A stretch of 64,000 nt of DNA from Minisyncoccota bacterium (GTDB lineage: Bacteria; Patescibacteriota; Minisyncoccia; Moranbacterales; UBA1568): positions 409,144 through 473,143 of the forward strand of contig JBPPMJ010000003.1 in NCBI GenBank assembly GCA_051306005.1, in the 5' to 3' direction. Under the pieces are notes generated by a model that saw only the letters and a program-made list of their open reading frames with translations, made no database searches and had not been told where the DNA came from. The translations under genes and the position numbers were made by a program. This document shows, piece after piece, positions 7,399 to 64,000 of the stretch (positions are counted from its first letter, which is position 1; each line of letters starts with the position of its first letter).

Positions 7399-7821
7399 AT
7401 GTCTCTCTCTCAACATCTCTTTACACCTTACATGGATAATCTTAAAAAAAATGGTGGCCTCACAGTATCGTACGCCTTATTAGCAGAAGCACTGATACTC
7501 GGTTATACTGGATTTTTCCTTCTATTAATGTTGGAGATACTCTTTCCAACATTAATCGCTGACCGCATCAACCTCTCACTGGCTTTCGCTATTCTTATGT
7601 TTTTTTCTTTGGTACTTGGAGCACTCGGACAGGCATTAGACGTACACTTTACGCCGACTATCCATAAAAAAAGCCCTCTCCTATGGATCGGACTTTTTTT
7701 GATTTTTAGCGTATCAATGATTTCTTTGTATACGTTTCCGTGGCCAATCATGCTCTTGGTGACTCTCTCACTCTTATGGATAAGTCAACTATTCTGGCGC
7801 ACACTCATCAACCAAAAATAA
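7399..7821 (+). CDS. small integral membrane protein
   Basis: About 140 aa with 4 hydrophobic helices. It is the third gene of the operon. The ORF could extend upstream to 7339. Confidence 0.45.
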   Translation: MSLSQHLFTPYMDNLKKNGGLTVSYALLAEALILGYTGFFLLLMLEILFPTLIADRINLSLAFAILMFFSLVLGALGQALDVHFTPTIHKKSPLLWIGLFLIFSVSMISLYTFPWPIMLLVTLSLLWISQLFWRTLINQK

Positions 7822-56714: not shown

Positions 56715-58385
56715 ATGCCCGAATCCACTACCCTCTATCGTAAATATCGTCCACAGATTTTTGCCGATGTTGTAGGCCAACAACCTATCGTCACCACGCT
56801 GACCAACGCTCTCAAGCTTGGACGTGTCGGTCAAGCATATCTCTTGACGGGTCCGCGCGGAACCGGCAAAACAACACTTGCCCGTCTCTTTGCCAAAGCT
56901 ATCAATTGCTCTGCCCGCAAACCAAAAAGTGCAGAACCCTGCAATCAGTGCCAACACTGTCTCTTGATGGCAGAAGGACGATCACTGGACGTGACTGAAA
57001 TTGATGCTGCCTCACATACAGGTGTAGACAATATTCGCACTCTTCGTGAAACCATTCAGCTCCCACCTACCCTCGGCTCTCACAAAATCTATATCATTGA
57101 TGAAGTACATATGCTCTCCCTTGGGGCATTCAATGCGCTCCTCAAAACTCTTGAAGAGCCTCCGGCTCATGTCGTTTTTATTCTCGCTACCACAGCTTTG
57201 CACAAAGTACCGGATACCATCATTTCACGTTGCCAACGTTTTGATTTGATCCGTTTTCCTGTAACTTTGATTACACAAAAACTCAGAAAAATCACCACGC
57301 AAGAAAAACTCCATATTACTGACGGTGCGCTTGAAATGATTGCCCTAACAGCCGAAGGCGGAATGCGTGATGCCGAATCCTTGCTCACACAAATCGCTTC
57401 ACTCGATATTTCTCCGATTACTGAAGACACCATCATTGAGATTTTGGGTACAACAAAACAAGCGAATATCGTTACTCTGCTTCAGCATATCAGCAATCGT
57501 GAACTCTATCCCGGTCTGGCGTATATCCGCCATCTCACCGACGAAGGCATTGATTTTTCGTTATATTGCGGAGCTCTCCTGCGTTATCTGCGTGATGTCC
57601 TCTTGGTTTCTGCGGATATGATCAATGGTCCTGCCCTCTTGACGCACCTCACTCCTGAACAACAAACTACTCTCACTGATCTGGCAAAGCATTTTACACC
57701 AGATGATATCGTGCGGATGCTCGAACACTTTCAGATTGCTTCCGCTGACAGCAAAACATCCGTCATTTCTGAACTTCCATTGGAAATTGCGTTTGTCAAA
57801 ATTCTCGCACCATCCACTCCTCCGGACAGCGCCACAACAACATCTGCACCAATGACTCTGCTACCTACTCCGACAGCCAATAACATTCCCTCAAATGCAG
57901 ATACAACAAAAAAGCCGTCGTCATTTTCAAAGATTCAAACATCCACAATAACAACAACATCAATTCAGTCAACAGATGATGCGAGTGTCGATACCATATC
58001 AGTCGGCACATCCGTCACCCTTGCCACTGTCCATACAAACTGGCAAAAAATACTTGACACAGCCAAAAAACTCAATGCCTCTCTTACTCTCGGGCTCTCC
58101 ACTGCCCGTCCTATCAAAACTCATGGCACGCTCATCACTATTGCTGTTAAATATCCTTTCCACAAAGAACGTCTTGATGAACCTGCTAATCAATTGACAC
58201 TCCAGAGCGCCTTTGATACTATTTTAGGGTTGCAAATTAAAATTGCGATTGTCCTGGAGGACACCCGTGTCCCAGACAACGATGTTCAACAACCAGTCAA
58301 AACCTCTGAAAAAGACTCTGCTTCTGATGTATTGATCAATCAGGCGATGAAACTTTTGGGAGGGACGATGGTCAATGAAGCATAA
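56715..58385 (+). CDS. dnaX: DNA polymerase III subunit gamma/tau
   Basis: YRPQIFADVVGQ, GPRGTGKTT, a zinc module CSARKPKSAEPCNQCQHC, and DEVHML. The C-terminal third is Thr/Ser-rich and low-complexity. Confidence 0.93.
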   Translation: MPESTTLYRKYRPQIFADVVGQQPIVTTLTNALKLGRVGQAYLLTGPRGTGKTTLARLFAKAINCSARKPKSAEPCNQCQHCLLMAEGRSLDVTEIDAASHTGVDNIRTLRETIQLPPTLGSHKIYIIDEVHMLSLGAFNALLKTLEEPPAHVVFILATTALHKVPDTIISRCQRFDLIRFPVTLITQKLRKITTQEKLHITDGALEMIALTAEGGMRDAESLLTQIASLDISPITEDTIIEILGTTKQANIVTLLQHISNRELYPGLAYIRHLTDEGIDFSLYCGALLRYLRDVLLVSADMINGPALLTHLTPEQQTTLTDLAKHFTPDDIVRMLEHFQIASADSKTSVISELPLEIAFVKILAPSTPPDSATTTSAPMTLLPTPTANNIPSNADTTKKPSSFSKIQTSTITTTSIQSTDDASVDTISVGTSVTLATVHTNWQKILDTAKKLNASLTLGLSTARPIKTHGTLITIAVKYPFHKERLDEPANQLTLQSAFDTILGLQIKIAIVLEDTRVPDNDVQQPVKTSEKDSASDVLINQAMKLLGGTMVNEA

Positions 58386-59932
58386 TACGGTTTCATTGAA
58401 AAATATTGTGGGGAGTAGCCAAGCGGTAAGGCAGGGGCCTTTGAAGCCCCCATACGAAGGTTCGATCCCTTCCTCCCCAGCATTTGTGAAAAGTCACCAT
58501 TTTTAGGTGATTTTTTTAGTATCTCAAACGGCATTTTGAAGCTCGATGAAGGCATTTCTTTGTGTTGAATTTCAAGGTTCCAAAGTAGTCTTTCAAGCAT
58601 TTTCGATTTCCTTTCGTTAGGGGCAGTGATAAATTCTTTTTTGGCTCTACTAGCGGTTAAAAAGATCTCTTTAATTTGTTCTAAAGTACTTAGCCCTCCC
58701 TCCGTTTTTGATCCGATTTTTCGCAACTGCGAATTAATCATTTCTCTTTCATTTTGAATTTGCTTCATTTTTGCCTCGTAAGCGTCAGAAGTGATATGTT
58801 CGGCCAGATACACATCCAAGAGCTTTGATTCTCGACCAGCAAGGCTTTCAAGCTTATTTAAGAGCGTTTCCCGAGAGGTTTCTTGGTAAATTTCTGTCTG
58901 CATGCTTTTTTCCTTTCGAGCGAGATAGGCCAATTCGATCAATTCCTCATCAAAATGGATTTCATCAAACAGGGTCGCCACGATAGCTTCAACGCTTTCA
59001 GACCGCATATAGCTTCGGTGTTCCTCACAGCGATTTCTGCCATTTGTGCAGTAGTAATAATCGTGCCCCTTTTGACGGCTGGCAATAAAGGCACAGCCAC
59101 CGCATTTAAGATATCCTCTAAGGGTGAAGACTAACTTCTGCTTCTTGGTATGGATTCGGCGATACAAAACATCTTGTACCTTTTCAAACAATTGCTGGGG
59201 GACCTCCGGTTCGTGGCGACCCTGATACAATTTGCCATTTCGCTCCATGAGCCCGTAATAGAAATGGTTAGAAAGAATTTTATGAATTTTACTTTTGTGT
59301 ACTTTACGATCATTGAGGGTTCGGAAGCCGTCTTCGTATAAAAGAGTGGCGATATCCATAACACTATATCCGCCAGTAGCATACAGTTCAAATGCTTTGA
59401 GAATGTAGGGTGCCCGCTCCTCATCAATGATAATAGTTTTGTTGAGTTTATCATTGAGATACCCAATAGGAGCGACACCAGGCCAGCCACCTTTTTCAAG
59501 TTTTGTTTTATTCCCACGTTTCACATTAACGGAAAGATCATCAGAATATTTTTTACCTACACCAAAGTCAATCGAGAGCATGAACTTGTCGATTGGATTA
59601 TCTACGATGATTTTATCAATCGTCCGAATTTCTTTAATATTTCCATTTTCCAAAAGGTCGATAATCTGAGAGCCGTCAAAAATATTTCGGGTCAATCGAT
59701 CAACCTTCCAAGCAAAAACGATGCAGTCTTTATTCTTGCTGATATATTCAAGCATTTCTTTGAAAACAGGCCGGCCAGGATGTTTGGCTGACATACTTTC
59801 TTTGTATGTTTTATCAATTTTGAACCCAAGCCTGCTAGCCATTTTCAAAAGCTCCGTTTCTTGCGATTCGATAGACATCGCTTGACGATCTTCACTTTCA
59901 GTAGATTTTCTGGCGTAAAGGATATGTTTCAT
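58340..59932 (-). CDS. large serine recombinase (resolvase/integrase family)
   Basis: N-terminal catalytic domain YARKSTESEDRQAMSIESQ (Ser nucleophile in a YxRxS context), a recombinase domain, a Zn ribbon (CGGCAFIASRQKGHDYYYCTNGRNRC) and a C-terminal coiled coil. The ORF reads antisense through tRNA-Gln and 46 nt into dnaX. Confidence 0.85.
   Translation of the reverse strand: MKHILYARKSTESEDRQAMSIESQETELLKMASRLGFKIDKTYKESMSAKHPGRPVFKEMLEYISKNKDCIVFAWKVDRLTRNIFDGSQIIDLLENGNIKEIRTIDKIIVDNPIDKFMLSIDFGVGKKYSDDLSVNVKRGNKTKLEKGGWPGVAPIGYLNDKLNKTIIIDEERAPYILKAFELYATGGYSVMDIATLLYEDGFRTLNDRKVHKSKIHKILSNHFYYGLMERNGKLYQGRHEPEVPQQLFEKVQDVLYRRIHTKKQKLVFTLRGYLKCGGCAFIASRQKGHDYYYCTNGRNRCEEHRSYMRSESVEAIVATLFDEIHFDEELIELAYLARKEKSMQTEIYQETSRETLLNKLESLAGRESKLLDVYLAEHITSDAYEAKMKQIQNEREMINSQLRKIGSKTEGGLSTLEQIKEIFLTASRAKKEFITAPNERKSKMLERLLWNLEIQHKEMPSSSFKMPFEILKKSPKNGDFSQMLGRKGSNLRMGASKAPALPLGYSPQYFSMKPYYASLTIVPPKSFIA
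58409..58480 (+). tRNA. tRNA-Gln (anticodon UUG)
   Basis: Manual cloverleaf. Acceptor TGGGGAG/CTCCCCA with U1:A72 and discriminator G73, both characteristic of bacterial tRNA-Gln. D-arm GCC...GGC, anticodon stem GGGGC/GCCCC with loop CTTTGAA, and T-arm GAAGG-TTCGATC-CCTTC. No CCA is encoded. Confidence 0.85.
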
Positions 59933-60861
59933 ACAGCGTATCTTTCCAAGATATCTACTTTAATTTCTCGTAACAGTTTTGGATGGTCTTTTAGACTACA
60001 GAAATCTACAACTACATGTTTCAGATATTCTTGATCGTACTCATAGGTACTGAGCTTTATCTTATCTTGTTCTAAAACAGTCCGAACAAGATTGACTACC
60101 TCATTAAAACTATGAATAATTGGTTTTTTGAGCCCCTTACTAGCGAAGTAGCTTTTTCTAGCTAGTAATCTACCGTCCTCAACACTTTTGGTCAAATATT
60201 TGCATAGATACTTAATCAGACCAGACTCACTTCTTACCGACTCCACCTGAGCAGTTCCCTCGCCGACACCTTTGCGCCATTCGTCTCGCATTTTGTCATA
60301 GATCCTGTCTATCCAGGGCAGATTGAAGAAAATGACATGGTAATGAATTGCTCCACGATTCTGAAATTCTACGACTGCTAAATATTTCAGAAATGTCATT
60401 TTGCCTCGAATATCGTAGCCCAATCTACGGATGAAATTGGTGAATTCATTGTGAGCGTACGTTAGATCGGTGACATTTTCCCGAAAAGTAAAAGTGATGA
60501 AAATCGGTAGATAGGGTTGGCCACCTCGCTTATACCATTGCCATGCATTACAAAGAATAAGATCTGTAATGGTATTTTTAGCTCGCTTCATACTCTTCAG
60601 ACGTATTTCTTTTGGAGTCAGTTTTTCCTTATCAACTTTTTCGGTATCACCACTTTTTCTAATTCTACTTCGTTTGCCAATCATACGATCACGTTCATAG
60701 TGGGATAGCTCCAAGTAGAAACCACAAAGCTTTACTCGTTGATTAGAAAAATATACGGTCGATTCACAATTATCAAAACTTTGAGGGATGTCCGGATTGA
60801 GCATAAGGAATGAAAGAGTAGCTATCGCATTAAGTGATGCTTTAAATAAATATAACGACAA
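59929..60861 (-). CDS. rolling-circle replication initiator (HUH endonuclease, two-Tyr superfamily)
   Basis: Motif 1 FITFTF, motif 2 HYHVIFF (HUH), and motif 3 KYLCKYLTK (YxxKYxxK). Its stop overlaps the recombinase start (ATGA). The ORF-track start is a TTG at 60861, and the first ATG is at 60804. Confidence 0.75.
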   Translation of the reverse strand: MSLYLFKASLNAIATLSFLMLNPDIPQSFDNCESTVYFSNQRVKLCGFYLELSHYERDRMIGKRSRIRKSGDTEKVDKEKLTPKEIRLKSMKRAKNTITDLILCNAWQWYKRGGQPYLPIFITFTFRENVTDLTYAHNEFTNFIRRLGYDIRGKMTFLKYLAVVEFQNRGAIHYHVIFFNLPWIDRIYDKMRDEWRKGVGEGTAQVESVRSESGLIKYLCKYLTKSVEDGRLLARKSYFASKGLKKPIIHSFNEVVNLVRTVLEQDKIKLSTYEYDQEYLKHVVVDFCSLKDHPKLLREIKVDILERYAV

Positions 60862-60908
60862 GAGGCAGACGTCTACCGCTAAGGCGGTAGCCGATCTGCC
60901 TGCTTGTC
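60857..60908. repeat. imperfect 23-25 bp inverted repeat with a taag loop at the 5' end of rep (candidate dso or recombination site)
   Basis: GACAAGAGGCAGACGTCTACCGC taag GCGGTAGCCGATCTGCCTGCTTGTC, with about 18 of 23 positions paired. Confidence 0.6.
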
Positions 60909-61070
60909 AAAAGCATTTATGAAATCAGCCAAAGAATCTAGATACTCATCGGCTTCATCATCCGAGATAGTCAAAGCACAGCGTTTTTGAAAATACGCTT
61001 TACATCGATCTCTTAATTCTTGGCTGAACCGTTGCTTCATTTCCCAGAGAATAATAATTCTGGGAAACAA
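60879..61070 (-). CDS. small ORF upstream of rep (possible Cop/regulator)
   Basis: 63 aa, at the position of copy-control proteins in RCR replicons. An 8-bp perfect hairpin spans its start. Confidence 0.35.
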   Translation of the reverse strand: MFPRIIILWEMKQRFSQELRDRCKAYFQKRCALTISDDEADEYLDSLADFINAFDKQADRLPP

Positions 61071-61102
61071 AAAAACCGACCATTAAATTGAGTCGGTTTT
61101 TG
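61069..61102. terminator. bidirectional rho-independent terminator
   Basis: aaaaa-aaccgac-(11 nt loop)-gtcggtt-ttt. Confidence 0.65.
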
Positions 61103-61347: not shown

Positions 61348-61668
61348 CTAACGGAATGGATCGTACATCTCGTTCGTGTATCTTCCATCGTGACCATCAT
61401 CTGGTGGTGATCCAGCAGGGATAATACCGAAAAAACCCAACCACATAACAATAAATCCAATAACAAATAAGATACCCAAGAGGGTTGTAAAAACTTTCCA
61501 AGGCAGTTTAAGACTACCAAGAATTGAGGCTAGAACCTTATCAAACTTTGATGAAGTTGGAGTTATTCTAATAAGATCGTCGTAATGATACCAAGTAAAC
61601 ACTACAATCAATACTAGTATTATTAAACCCCATTGTTCCAGTCCATTCATATATTCCAAATACCACAC
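61348..61668 (-). CDS. small 2-TM membrane protein (element cargo)
   Basis: 106 aa with two hydrophobic helices and a Gly/Asp-rich C-terminus. Confidence 0.45.
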   Translation of the reverse strand: MWYLEYMNGLEQWGLIILVLIVVFTWYHYDDLIRITPTSSKFDKVLASILGSLKLPWKVFTTLLGILFVIGFIVMWLGFFGIIPAGSPPDDGHDGRYTNEMYDPFR

Positions 61669-61692
61669 ATAGCGAAAACTATGGTTTAGGCC

Positions 61693-61698
61693 TATAAT
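61693..61698 (+). promoter_or_regulatory. TATAAT -10 box upstream of the cargo operon
   Basis: cctataat at 61691-98. Confidence 0.3.
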
Positions 61699-61738
61699 TC
61701 AGTTGTTAATGTTTAGTATATCATGGGGTAGAAATATT

Positions 61739-62329
61739 ATGTTAATAGTATGTAATATAGAAAATCTGATCCAGGCTATTTCGAACATTGTTACAGTTTT
61801 GGCTACAATTGCGGGTATTTTTCTTGCGATAAAGGGGTTTAGCACATGGAAGGACCAGCTAAGAGGCAAGACCGATTACGAACTAGCAAGAAGATATTTA
61901 AGAGCTATCTATAAGGTTCGAGACGCAATAAAATTTGTCAGGAACCCATTTATACCCGTAGAAGAAATGGGTGTGGCACTTAAGCAAAGCGGAAAGACAC
62001 AAGAGGATGATAGCCGAGAAACTACAAGAATGGTTTATAATCTTCGTTGGAAAAAAGTTAATGAAGCCGAATCTGATCTCAGAGTAGAATTATTAGAGGC
62101 AGAAGTTTCTTGGGGCCAAGAAGCATTAGATGTCGAAAAAGATTTTCATGCATGTGTAATTAAAATTTATGTTGCCCTAAAAATGTATCTAGATTTTGAT
62201 AATTCCTCTGAAAGAAGAAAAGAGGATAAGGAATTAATTTACGATCAAGGAGAGAATGACAAGTTCAATAAAGAGCTCGATAGTGCAATCAAAAAAATTG
62301 AGAAGTATCTTGCGCCACATCTAAAATAA
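61739..62329 (+). CDS. hypothetical protein with an N-terminal TM and a helical cytoplasmic domain (cargo gene A)
   Basis: TM IVTVLATIAGIFLAI followed by a charged helical domain. The ATG at 61739 is used. The ORF track starts at a TTG at 61703. Confidence 0.5.
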   Translation: MLIVCNIENLIQAISNIVTVLATIAGIFLAIKGFSTWKDQLRGKTDYELARRYLRAIYKVRDAIKFVRNPFIPVEEMGVALKQSGKTQEDDSRETTRMVYNLRWKKVNEAESDLRVELLEAEVSWGQEALDVEKDFHACVIKIYVALKMYLDFDNSSERRKEDKELIYDQGENDKFNKELDSAIKKIEKYLAPHLK

Positions 62330-62374
62330 ACGAGTGCAATTAGAACAGTTAAAGCTTCTTAGTTTGGAAAATAT

Positions 62375-63154
62375 ATGAGTGAATTTACTAAAAAAACTAC
62401 CCGGGAAGTTATCCAAAGCAATAGAATTGCAATAAAGAGTGATCGACCAAAAAAAGCACTGCAGAACAATCCAAACCTATTAAATGAAGAGCAAAAATAT
62501 GCAGAAGTAGAGATCAATAATATTCTCGTAGATATAACTGGACAATACTCCGAGTTAGTACCTTATATAAAAAGATTAAAAAATTTCGTACCAGATATAA
62601 CAGAAGAGACTCATTATTGTGCGGTTTACTTATTATTTTGCCAATCTGCGACCTACTGGGATTCAATTTTTTTACTAGCCAAAAATGGAAATAGCTCTGC
62701 TATTCAAGTAATCACGAGAACAATAAAAGAAGCTTTTGCACTAACCGAACTGTTTTCTTTGGAATTTTACGAAGGTAAAAATGAACATTTATTAAAATGG
62801 TTTTCTGGTGAAATAATCAGTAACGGTGCCCATCGAAGAGCAATGAATGAATTTTTCGAAAAAACACAAAGTGGCGCTACTATTTTAGAGGAGATGTCGA
62901 GAGATTTATATAGAATGGAATCTCATTCTATACATGTAGCATACACCTCCGTATTGGAATGTATCAGTCCGTTTACAGAAGATTTTGATTTTGAAAAATT
63001 TACCCGATTTAGACGAACGAGCTATAATTTAGGTTATGTGAAGGGTGCTATGGATGGGACAAATATTGCTCTAAAATTTGCATATAAATTTCTACTACGA
63101 GACCTAGAGAGTTACGATCAACTTGAAAAAATACTGATCAAATATGAGAAATAA
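62375..63154 (+). CDS. hypothetical all-helical cytoplasmic protein (cargo gene B)
   Basis: 259 aa with no recognisable catalytic motif. The R/H-containing stretches (GAHRRAMNEF and RDLYRMESHSIH) are at best a weak HEPN/Abi-like hint. Confidence 0.5.
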   Translation: MSEFTKKTTREVIQSNRIAIKSDRPKKALQNNPNLLNEEQKYAEVEINNILVDITGQYSELVPYIKRLKNFVPDITEETHYCAVYLLFCQSATYWDSIFLLAKNGNSSAIQVITRTIKEAFALTELFSLEFYEGKNEHLLKWFSGEIISNGAHRRAMNEFFEKTQSGATILEEMSRDLYRMESHSIHVAYTSVLECISPFTEDFDFEKFTRFRRTSYNLGYVKGAMDGTNIALKFAYKFLLRDLESYDQLEKILIKYEK

Positions 63155-63596
63155 TCAAATAAGTAAGAATGGACTAAGTGAAGGAAATCAAAACTTTATT
63201 GTGATTTTGGTTTTGGTCTTCTTACTAGTCTTTGGACCCATAGAACCATTTGGACTGGCTATTCGATTTGCATATTTGATTATCATTCCAATACTAGCTC
63301 TATTGGTATTGCGACATTTGGGGCAAAAATGCAACATGGATAAGCTATCAAATGATCGATTAAATCGAGCACTTTTGTCTGGGATAGCAGGGGCTCTTTT
63401 AGTCGGCGCATACCTTTCATATACGGCGAGTAGCCATACCGAGTGCGACCAATATGTTCAAACTAGAGAGGGAGAAGAGTGTGTTGGCGACTATATAACA
63501 GTAAAAGGGCCCGACAAAGGGAGTGCATTAATTCAAATCTTGTTCGCTGGAATAGCGATTTGGTACGCTGTTGCAAAGAGACCCGAAAGAGACTAA
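63144..63596 (+). CDS. small polytopic membrane protein (cargo gene C)
   Basis: 150 aa with 3-4 TM helices and a Cys-containing extracytoplasmic tail. It overlaps gene B by 11 nt. Confidence 0.5.
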   Translation: MRNNQISKNGLSEGNQNFIVILVLVFLLVFGPIEPFGLAIRFAYLIIIPILALLVLRHLGQKCNMDKLSNDRLNRALLSGIAGALLVGAYLSYTASSHTECDQYVQTREGEECVGDYITVKGPDKGSALIQILFAGIAIWYAVAKRPERD

Positions 63597-63631: not shown

Positions 63632-63666
63632 TAAAAAAGAACCCCAGAATAAAGGGGTTCTTTTTA
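63632..63666. terminator. bidirectional rho-independent terminator
   Basis: aaaaaa-gaacccc-agaataaa-ggggttc-ttttta. Confidence 0.8.
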
Positions 63667-63675
63667 TGTCTGCTG

Positions 63676-64000
63676 TTATCGAAGCTCGTACTTGATTTTC
63701 ATTCCAGCTGTGTCCCAAAAAGATTTCATCTTTCCGAGTTTCGTGGGCGTACCAGCATCATGCATCCAATCAGCAAGTGTTTCTGCGTAAACCTTTGAAA
63801 CTTTCTTGAGAGCATCTTCAGGACTAGCTGTAAACGACGCTTCCGTATCCACTTTGACGTACATTCTCAAAGGGGAAAGCAATGGATAAATAAAGGCTAT
63901 CGGAATCTTATAAGGCACTGACCTTTCAATGAAAGGAAGCTCATCCCCATCCTTTTTTCTGCTCTTCCGGACTGAATCCAGATCTTGTATAGCTTTCACC
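63676..64000 (-). CDS. hypothetical protein, probably 5'-truncated by the window edge
   Basis: ORF open to the edge. The apparent start at 63999 is a GTG. Confidence 0.3.
   Translation of the reverse strand, partial: VKAIQDLDSVRKSRKKDGDELPFIERSVPYKIPIAFIYPLLSPLRMYVKVDTEASFTASPEDALKKVSKVYAETLADWMHDAGTPTKLGKMKSFWDTAGMKIKYELR

What the first reader, a model, noticed from the sequence alone, without database searches (positions are those of the whole stretch)
61348..63596. Uncharacterised cargo cassette inside the element (2-TM protein, TM+helical protein, 259-aa helical protein, small polytopic membrane protein) as a candidate novel defence or abortive-infection module
The four tightly linked genes carry no recognisable enzymatic motif. 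Three encode membrane proteins and one a soluble all-helical protein. They are clearly more AT-rich than the flanking DNA, carry their own -10 box, and lie between two terminators on a mobile element. That is the typical context of defence islands, Abi systems and membrane-effector toxin modules. Genes B and C overlap by 11 nt, which points to co-translation.
Basis: inference. Interest (0 to 1): 0.7.

Follow-up and report, generated by a model that had tools for sequence, protein, structure and literature searches.

The report
Mixed cargo genes, not one module
The four genes are real, but they are a patchwork of unrelated cargo next to a small integrating element in a candidate-phyla-radiation bacterium; two of them (B and C) belong to uncharacterised families that often sit beside restriction and anti-phage genes elsewhere, so they are reasonable but untested defence candidates.

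Summary
The window is from a Minisyncoccota (CPR) genome. A serine recombinase, a rolling-circle Rep and a small conserved gene lie at tRNA-Gln. The flagged AT-rich interval follows them.

All four ORFs and their predicted features are present. They are not a conserved unit. Gene A (2 TM) is divergent, on the minus strand, and no relative was found where I could search. B, C and D occur together only in near-identical contigs.

- **Gene B** (196 aa) is one TM helix plus a four-helix bundle, probably cytoplasmic. Its relatives sit inside type I and type III restriction operons and beside an AbiV gene. A 77%-identical copy is a solo gene among housekeeping genes.
- **Gene C** (259 aa) is a divergent DUF5677-like helical protein. 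Its relatives lie beside Shedu, GmrSD, Mrr, TIR-STAND, Hachiman and restriction genes. They also ride on other serine-recombinase elements, including a sister element at tRNA-Gln.
- **Gene D** is a conserved 4-TM CPR protein found in housekeeping neighbourhoods.

None of the four genes gives a significant match to a PADLOC model. B and C have no relative in PDB, and C has no viral structural match. The defence reading rests only on neighbourhood, and only for B and C separately. Interest is moderate.

The parts
58409..58481 (+). tRNA-Gln(ttg), the attachment point of the element.
   Evidence: ARAGORN. The same tRNA flanks the sister element L032 and the island in L008.
58340..59932 (-). Large serine recombinase (integrase). 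Its 3' end reads antisense through the tRNA and into the dnaX 3' end.
   Evidence: Resolvase 1.5e-22, Recombinase 6e-14, phrog_95 7e-76. Coordinates.
59929..60861 (-). Rolling-circle replication initiator.
   Evidence: PF23343 REP_ORF2-G2P 8e-19, phrog_3419 1e-26. 32% identical to the Rep of L032.
60879..61070 (-). Small conserved backbone gene. The likely true start is the ATG at 61040 (Met11).
   Evidence: ORF. A 56%-identical homologue sits at the same position in L032, aligned from residue 11.
61040..61067 (.). Perfect 9-bp inverted repeat TTTCCCAGA-N10-TCTGGGAAA at the start of the small gene. It is a possible operator.
   Evidence: Repeat I12. Fold dG -15.5, z -5.3.
61072..61100 (-). Terminator-like hairpin with a U7 tail, downstream of gene A on the minus strand.
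   Evidence: Fold dG -13, z -3.6.
61348..61668 (-). Gene A: 106-aa ORF (100 aa from the ATG at 61650) with two hydrophobic segments. It is divergent from B and no relative was found.
   Evidence: No relative in the fetched loci or in phage records. No family hit.
61693..61698 (+). TATAAT -10-like hexamer upstream of gene B.
   Evidence: Read directly from the sequence. It was not called by the two-hexamer scan.
61739..62329 (+). Gene B: 196 aa, one N-terminal TM helix continuous with a four-helix bundle. The bundle is probably cytoplasmic by the positive-inside rule.
62375..63154 (+). Gene C: 259-aa soluble all-helical protein, a divergent DUF5677-like family.
   Evidence: PF18928 at 20.3 bits, E 6e-4. 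17 of 45 relatives hit DUF5677. 212 clusters in the profile search. Model pLDDT 83. Contexts.
63144..63596 (+). Gene D: 150-aa 4-TM protein with an invariant H-x-E-C ... E-C-V-G-x-Y loop. It overlaps C by 11 nt.
   Evidence: 24 homologues. Alignment A6. Housekeeping contexts.
63634..63665 (.). Bidirectional intrinsic terminator shared by D and the convergent gene.
   Evidence: Scan. Fold dG -18.8, z -5.5.
63676..64000 (-). 3' end of a convergent gene of at least 224 aa that runs off the window. Function unknown. GC 0.43, close to the window average.
   Evidence: No Pfam hit. GC.

Best explanation
The interval is the variable cargo region that follows the backbone of a small integrative element at tRNA-Gln in a Minisyncoccota genome. 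The backbone is a serine recombinase, a rolling-circle Rep and a small conserved gene. The cargo is a mosaic of independently acquired genes, not a four-component system.

- **Gene B** is a membrane-tethered four-helix-bundle protein, with the bundle probably cytoplasmic. Its family moves as a single gene and often lands inside restriction-modification operons or next to HEPN-type abortive-infection genes.
- **Gene C** is a soluble, divergent DUF5677-like helical protein. Its family moves as a single gene among defence islands and serine-recombinase elements.
- **Gene D** is a conserved CPR 4-TM protein that is usually chromosomal and housekeeping-linked. Here it is simply co-transcribed with C.
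- **Gene A** is a 2-TM ORF with no detectable relative.

Inferred function: B and C each contribute separately to protecting the host or element against phages or rival mobile DNA.

For B the likeliest mechanism follows the PrrC/RonA logic. A membrane-anchored accessory protein works with a restriction or Abi partner and becomes active when that partner is engaged or inhibited.

For C the likeliest role is a cytoplasmic sensor, adaptor or effector domain, because relatives carry it fused behind ASCH, serine-hydrolase, HEPN or metallophosphatase domains.

Shown: gene anatomy, folds, family sizes and neighbourhoods. Inferred: any defence activity and all mechanisms.
For: **Backbone**
- Family hits for the recombinase and Rep, and the adjacent tRNA.
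- Sister element L032 has tRNA-Gln, recombinase, Rep and the small-gene homologue. Its cargo is a 62%-identical C plus DUF2726 plus Shedu SduA_C, and it ends at an att-like repeat near 7749-7803. It has no B and no D.

**No co-occurrence**
- BLAST of A-D against gene calls of 39 loci finds B, C and D together only in identical contigs L001 and L002.

**B contexts**
- L017: HsdR, fused HsdM-S, B, then a 247-aa protein carrying an R-x5-H motif (read by eye).
- L020: HsdM, B, DUF4760, HsdS.
- L019: PDC-M68B, DrmD-like helicase, B, type III Mod, type III Res.
- L012: serine-recombinase element with a 397-aa gene, B, then HEPN_AbiV, the last two overlapping by 1 nt.
- Restriction-modification families are the commonest neighbours among 95 flanking proteins.
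- The family spans CPR groups, Chloroflexia, Acidobacteria, Verrucomicrobia, Proteobacteria, plasmids and one phage.

**C contexts**
- EcoRI-type MTase, C, Bro-N, GmrSD.
- Abi_alpha-like gene, C, TPR and TIR-NB-ARC, with Hachiman nearby.
- Type III-like restriction genes and an AAA_15/21 ATPase before C.
- Mrr, PIN-like gene, C, recombinase in L036.

**Literature**
- DUF5677 is enriched next to serine recombinases in Bacillota (PMC12632615).
- RonA is a 61-aa TM effector held by HsdMS and released by anti-restriction proteins (bioRxiv 10.1101/2023.04.06.535777).
Against: - None of A-D gives a significant PADLOC hit.
- B also occurs as a solo gene in housekeeping or glycan-synthesis neighbourhoods (L043, L010).
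- No restriction or Abi partner is visible next to B in this window.
- In PMC12632615 nine ORFs were tested, one of them carrying DUF5677. The text read names five other domain types as active or weakly active, so by implication the DUF5677 ORF gave no protection against six Enterococcus phages.
- Neighbourhood counts have no background control.
- The right end of the element was not seen, so 'cargo' rests on the sister element and on GC content.
Confidence: 0.6

Rival explanations
1. One reading: the four genes act together as one new membrane-effector defence or abortive-infection system.
For: - The genes are closely packed, with an 11-nt C/D overlap, a shared AT-rich composition and flanking terminators.
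- B, C and D homologues at 79-87% identity all report the same longest contig of 3074 nt, so they are probably collinear in one close relative. This is an inference.
Against: - No co-occurrence beyond near-identical sequences in 28 other loci.
- A is on the other strand and has no detectable relative.
- D relatives are in housekeeping contexts.
- The sister element carries C alone.
- A B copy at 77% identity is solo.
Confidence: 0.06
2. These are element-lifestyle genes rather than immunity genes. The membrane proteins would serve superinfection or entry exclusion, membrane anchoring of replication, or virion or transfer functions of a rolling-circle (possibly inovirus- or plasmid-like) element.
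For: - The Rep belongs to the ORF2/G2P family shared with filamentous phages.
- Three of the four products are small membrane proteins.
- B relatives lie on plasmids in runs of small ORFs near TraH and in one Pseudomonas phage.
Against: - B relatives sit inside chromosomal restriction operons, and C relatives sit in defence islands without any Rep or transfer genes.
- D relatives are in core-gene neighbourhoods.
- B and C were not found in IMG/VR contigs.
- The cargo differs between sister elements while the backbone is conserved.
Confidence: 0.12
3. These are hitchhiking genes with no defence role. B, C and D would be ordinary small envelope or cytoplasmic proteins of unknown physiology that happen to lie in a recombination hot spot downstream of dnaX and tRNA-Gln.
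For: - The same dnaX-tRNA-Gln site in L008 holds a B homologue with no recombinase.
- B and D occur among housekeeping genes.
- By implication, the one tested DUF5677 ORF showed no protection.
Against: - B is repeatedly inserted in operons between restriction subunits in unrelated phyla.
- C repeatedly adjoins Shedu, GmrSD, Mrr and STAND genes.
- The patchy cross-phylum distribution of both families indicates horizontal mobility typical of accessory immunity genes.
Confidence: 0.17
4. B is a counter-defence or establishment gene carried by mobile elements, rather than a defence gene.
For: In two Burkholderiaceae plasmids the distant B homologue lies in a long same-strand run of small ORFs. In one plasmid the run is near TraH, and in both it is near toxin-antitoxin pairs. 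That layout resembles plasmid leading regions. The resemblance is my own knowledge and was not tested here.
Against: - Being embedded between hsdM and hsdS, or between a helicase and a type III Mod gene, in chromosomal operons is hard to reconcile with an anti-restriction role.
- The plasmid homologues are only 24-27% identical.
Confidence: 0.05

Closest known systems
DUF5677 (Pfam PF18928)
   Same: Gene C and 17 of 45 diverse relatives match the model over its N-terminal part. C matches at residues 83-123, against model positions 3-43. DUF5677 is reported as enriched beside serine recombinases (PMC12632615), and that is also the setting here.
   Different: C scores 20.3 bits, below the 27.1 gathering score. 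It carries an extra N-terminal segment of about 80 residues. It forms its own conserved subfamily, invariant at R115, E119 and W142, with the motif SPFTEDFDF. No function is known for DUF5677. By implication, the one tested ORF gave no protection.
RonA (Ronin) and PrrC: abortive-infection effectors embedded in type I restriction loci
   Same: B relatives are small proteins tightly linked within hsd operons (L017, L020) or a type III operon (L019). Like RonA, B has a single TM helix.
   Different: There is no sequence relation. B is 196 aa with a conserved four-helix bundle, whereas RonA is 61 aa. In this window B has no restriction genes beside it, and many B relatives are not restriction-linked. 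Toxicity and triggering are untested.
Four-helix-bundle sensor domains of histidine kinases and chemoreceptors (TorS, 4HB_MCP)
   Different: B has only one TM helix and no output domain. The strongly basic stretch after the TM helix predicts a cytoplasmic bundle, not a periplasmic one. Sequence identity is 4-11%. Four-helix bundles match many unrelated proteins.
Serine-recombinase-associated defence cargo (RADS concept, Andersen et al. 2025)
   Same: A serine recombinase is followed by variable cargo. Sister elements carry Shedu (L032) or AbiV (L012).
   Different: Here the element also has a rolling-circle Rep and sits at a tRNA in a CPR genome. The cargo genes in this window match no known defence family.
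HEPN-type Abi proteins (AbiV, AbiU2)
   Same: These are small all-helical single-gene cargo. An AbiV gene occupies the position downstream of B in L012 that C occupies here.
   Different: C has no conserved R-x4-6-H motif. The hhalign probability against the L012 AbiV is 0.1%. In one distant relative a HEPN domain and the C-like domain are separate parts of the same protein.

Membership tests
DUF5677 (PF18928) | Whole-protein score at or above the Pfam gathering score of 27.1 bits. | tested here: not met
   C scores 20.3 bits, E 6e-4. Relatives reach E 1.2e-7, and 17 of 45 match at E <= 1e-3. C is therefore a divergent relative, not a curated member.
HEPN superfamily | A conserved R-x4-6-H motif on a helix of a four-helix core. 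| tested here: not met
Any known or candidate defence system in PADLOC-DB v2 | A significant match to a system protein model. | tested here: not met
   A, C and D have no hit at E <= 1. B has only Drt1b|RTasTM at E 0.032 over the TM region.
Restriction-embedded abortive effector (PrrC/RonA type) | Tight operonic linkage to restriction-modification subunits. | tested here: inconclusive
   Met for B relatives in L017, L019 and L020. Not met in this window or in L010 and L043.
Restriction-embedded abortive effector (PrrC/RonA type) | Toxicity that is held in check by the restriction partner and released by phage anti-restriction proteins. | not testable with these tools
   This needs expression experiments.
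DUF4760 (PF15956) | A match to the family model (TM helix plus helical domain). | tested here: not met
   B has no Pfam hit to DUF4760 at E <= 1. hhalign of A2 against the DUF4760 protein of L020 gives 8% probability.
4HB_MCP / histidine-kinase four-helix-bundle sensor | A periplasmic bundle between two TM helices, coupled to a signalling output domain. | tested here: not met
tRNA-integrated serine-recombinase element | A large serine recombinase with Resolvase, Recombinase and zinc-ribbon domains next to a tRNA gene. | tested here: met
   The same layout occurs in L032.
tRNA-integrated serine-recombinase element | A second attachment site (attR) that bounds the cargo. | tested here: inconclusive
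   No repeat of the tRNA region occurs before position 64000. L032 has one near 7749-7803. The window ends too early to decide.

The most novel reading that the evidence does not exclude
Gene B represents a widespread, undescribed family of membrane-tethered four-helix-bundle proteins that act as accessory 'guard' or effector subunits of type I and type III restriction systems and of HEPN Abi genes. Gene C represents a new single-gene immunity family within the DUF5677 superfamily. Both would be spread in CPR bacteria by small serine-recombinase/rolling-circle elements that target tRNA-Gln.
Probability: 0.2. Interest if true: 0.65.

Novelty: new member of a known kind. Interest (0 to 1): 0.38.

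Why it matters
Little is known, to my knowledge, about mobile elements and immunity in CPR bacteria. This locus and its sister elements show a small integrase-plus-Rep element at tRNA-Gln that swaps cargo, including Shedu and AbiV in relatives.

The work picks out two uncharacterised families worth testing. One is a membrane-tethered bundle protein found inside restriction operons in several phyla. The other is a DUF5677-like protein found in defence islands.

It also removes a false lead. The four genes should not be cloned and tested as one system.

Tried and rejected
- **One conserved four-gene module.** Rejected by BLAST of A-D against 39 fetched loci and by neighbour clustering.
- **C as a HEPN/AbiV-type protein.** There is no conserved R-x4-6-H motif, and hhalign gives 0.1%.
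- **B as DUF4760.** hhalign gives 8% and there is no Pfam hit.
- **Downstream partners of B being C-like.** HMM searches with A1 and A3 against seven neighbours gave nothing significant.
- **Structural identification.**
  - Foldseek against BFVD gives nothing for C.
  - PDB sequence-profile searches were empty.
  - The afdb50 library was unavailable.
- **Phage origin.** B and C are absent from IMG/VR by pattern search. C and A are absent from phage records, C is absent from plasmids, and B has one weak phage hit.
- **Inovirus-like structural genes.** This reading is unsupported for B, C and D, given their chromosomal contexts elsewhere. It remains open for A.
- **Reading past the window end.** The source contig is not in the look-up index, so the right end of the element stays unknown.
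- **Relatives of the Rep in IMG/VR.** None found.
Full report
**Source and setting**

Gene C is identical to a hypothetical protein of a Minisyncoccota (CPR/Patescibacteria) MAG on a 494-kb contig. Upstream of the flagged interval lie:

- dnaX (56715-58385) and tRNA-Gln (58409-58481);
- a large serine recombinase on the minus strand (58340-59932; Resolvase, Recombinase and zinc ribbon; phrog_95 integrase, 7e-76);
- a rolling-circle Rep (59929-60861; PF23343 8e-19; phrog_3419 1e-26);
- a small 63-aa gene.

This is the backbone of a small integrative element. The recombinase reading frame runs antisense through the tRNA.

**Checking the observation**

The four ORFs exist.

- **Gene A** (61348-61668) is on the minus strand and has two hydrophobic segments.
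- **Gene B** (ATG at 61739, ends 62329) has one N-terminal TM helix followed by a very basic stretch.
- **Gene C** (62375-63154) has no TM segment.
- **Gene D** (63144-63596) has four TM segments. Three pass the hydropathy cut-off and the fourth is inferred by eye.

The interval has GC 0.356 against 0.421 for the window. That is the 7th lowest of 618 equal-sized windows. A TATAAT hexamer lies at 61693-61698.

A strong bidirectional terminator follows D (63634-63665, dG -18.8, z -5.5). A minus-strand hairpin with a U7 tail lies below A (61072-61100, z -3.6).

The 11-nt overlap is between the 259-aa and 150-aa genes. B and C are 45 nt apart. A is divergent from B, so at most three genes can share a transcript.

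**Known families**

Pfam, NCBIfam, PHROGs and PADLOC give nothing significant for A and D. B has only weak hits to PHROGs of unknown function. C has a sub-threshold DUF5677 hit of 20.3 bits against a cut-off of 27.1. None of the four proteins gives a significant match to a PADLOC model.

**Is it a module?**

Large-database searches found 21 relatives of C, 71 of B and 24 of D, all unnamed and mostly from CPR genomes. I fetched 18 non-redundant B loci, 10 C loci and 3 D loci, then called genes in them.

BLAST of A-D against all the gene calls finds B, C and D together only in two contigs identical to the window. Clustering of neighbours shows no shared partner. Homologues at 79-87% identity probably share one 3074-nt contig. 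That is inferred from the reported contig lengths. A 77%-identical B is already a solo gene between an ABC-2 transporter and a NUDIX gene. The four genes are therefore a recent mosaic.

**Gene B**

B has a single TM helix, and the charge pattern predicts a cytoplasmic bundle. The family has a strongly conserved segment, W-K-x-Q-L-K-G-K-T-D-Y-E-L-A-R-R, and an E-A-E-V-S-W-G motif.

Contexts of B relatives:

- In Saccharibacteria L017, B follows HsdR and a fused HsdM-S, overlapping it by 16 nt. A 247-aa protein with an R-x5-H motif (read by eye) comes next.
- In L020, B and a DUF4760 gene lie between HsdM and HsdS.
- In L019, B lies between a DrmD-like helicase (1e-210) and type III Mod/Res genes.
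- In Parcubacteria L012, B overlaps a HEPN_AbiV gene by 1 nt on another serine-recombinase element.

Restriction-modification families top the list among 95 flanking proteins. The family is scattered across CPR groups, Chloroflexia, Acidobacteria, Verrucomicrobia, Proteobacteria, Leptospira and Burkholderiaceae plasmids, and one Pseudomonas phage. Other copies lie among glycosyltransferase or housekeeping genes.

**Gene C**

The model (pLDDT 83) is all-helical. The most conserved stretch (187-206, H...SPFTEDFDF) is modelled with low confidence. A profile search of 1.8 billion representative proteins finds 212 clusters. Of 45 diverse members, 17 match DUF5677, with a best E-value of 1.2e-7.

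Contexts of C relatives:

- EcoRI-type methylase, C, Bro-N, GmrSD.
- Abi_alpha-like gene, C, TPR and TIR-NB-ARC, with Hachiman nearby.
- Type III-like restriction genes and an AAA_15/21 ATPase before C.
- Mrr, PIN-like gene, C, serine recombinase in L036.
- Sister element L032: tRNA-Gln, recombinase, Rep, small-gene homologue, then C (62%), DUF2726 and Shedu, ending at an att-like repeat.

A 2025 preprint reports DUF5677 as enriched beside serine recombinases in Bacillota. Nine ORFs were tested there, including one DUF5677 ORF, and the DUF5677 ORF is not among the five reported as active (PMC12632615).

**Genes D and A**

D is a conserved 4-TM protein with an invariant H-x-E-C ... E-C-V-G-x-Y loop. 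Its relatives follow the hrcA-grpE-dnaK genes in one genome. In another they lie between HIT and SpoU genes. In a third they follow a KAP NTPase gene and a 279-aa gene. That pattern is largely a housekeeping one.

A has no relative in any fetched locus or in phage records. I could not search the large protein database for it. It is probably real, because an open frame of 106 codons is unlikely by chance in DNA of 36% GC. That is my own rough estimate, about 0.15 expected in the interval.

**Interpretation**

The best reading is variable cargo of a tRNA-Gln element. B and C are separate genes of the defence-island type. D is a passenger and A is unresolved.

For B, the closest working analogy is an accessory effector embedded in a restriction locus, such as PrrC or the 61-aa TM protein RonA. 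RonA is restrained by HsdMS and released by anti-restriction proteins. B shares the genomic logic and the single TM helix. It shares no sequence with RonA, and no restriction genes flank it here.

For C, the domain fusions suggest a sensor, adaptor or effector role. All functional statements are inferences from neighbourhood.

**Limits**

- The right end of the element is beyond the window, and the source contig was not retrievable.
- Neighbourhood counts lack a background control.

**Verdict**

This is a new member of a known kind: mobile-element cargo of the defence-island type. It contains two uncharacterised families that merit testing one gene at a time.

Noticed in passing
window 58340-58481; L032 92-1621: The serine-recombinase reading frame runs antisense through the whole tRNA-Gln gene and 46 nt into the dnaX 3' end. 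In sister element L032 it also ends inside the tRNA. The attachment site therefore lies within the integrase 3' end, and the integrated and excised forms should encode different C-termini.
   Followed up: partly
window 61040-61067: A perfect 9-bp inverted repeat, TTTCCCAGA-N10-TCTGGGAAA (fold z -5.3), sits at the probable start codon of the small conserved backbone gene. It is a candidate operator or regulatory hairpin.
   Followed up: partly
L032 1-7803: A sister element at tRNA-Gln has a homologous recombinase, Rep and small gene. It carries a C homologue, a DUF2726 nuclease-like gene and a Shedu (SduA_C) gene. An att-like repeat of the tRNA region lies near 7749-7803, giving an element of about 7.7 kb.
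   Followed up: yes
L008 4403-10523: In a Paceibacteria genome the same dnaX-tRNA-Gln site holds a 72%-identical B, a DUF2726 gene and a 202-aa 2-TM protein, but no recombinase. The site looks like a recombination hot spot or holds a decayed element. The public gene calls there miss dnaX and list small ORFs on the opposite strand.
   Followed up: partly
window 63144-63596; alignment A6: The D family has an invariant H98-x-E-C101 ... E112-C113-V-G-x-Y117 loop between TM3 and TM4. This suggests a metal site or a disulphide on one face of the membrane.
   Followed up: no
L019 1154-11118: A Saccharibacteria operon reads PDC-M68B, DrmD-like SNF2 helicase, B homologue, type III Mod, type III Res. 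It is a composite restriction system with a B-family gene in the middle.
   Followed up: partly
L047 and L049 (Caballeronia and Paraburkholderia plasmids): Distant B homologues (about 26% identity) lie in long same-strand runs of small unnamed ORFs. In one plasmid the run is near TraH, and in both it is near toxin-antitoxin pairs. The layout is reminiscent of plasmid leading regions.
   Followed up: no
P0156, P0183, P0259, P0260 (distant relatives of gene C): The C-like (DUF5677-like) domain occurs fused behind ASCH, serine-hydrolase, HEPN and metallophosphatase domains.
   Followed up: partly
window 63676-64000 and L001 1953-2627: A convergent gene of at least 224 aa has no family match and has window-average GC. 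It may mark the end of the cargo or the start of host DNA.
   Followed up: partly
L007 7797-10786: In one locus a C homologue follows an AAA_15/AAA_21 ATPase and an 83-aa gene, with gaps of 20 and 9 nt. This may be a three-gene operon of the ATPase-plus-effector type.
   Followed up: no
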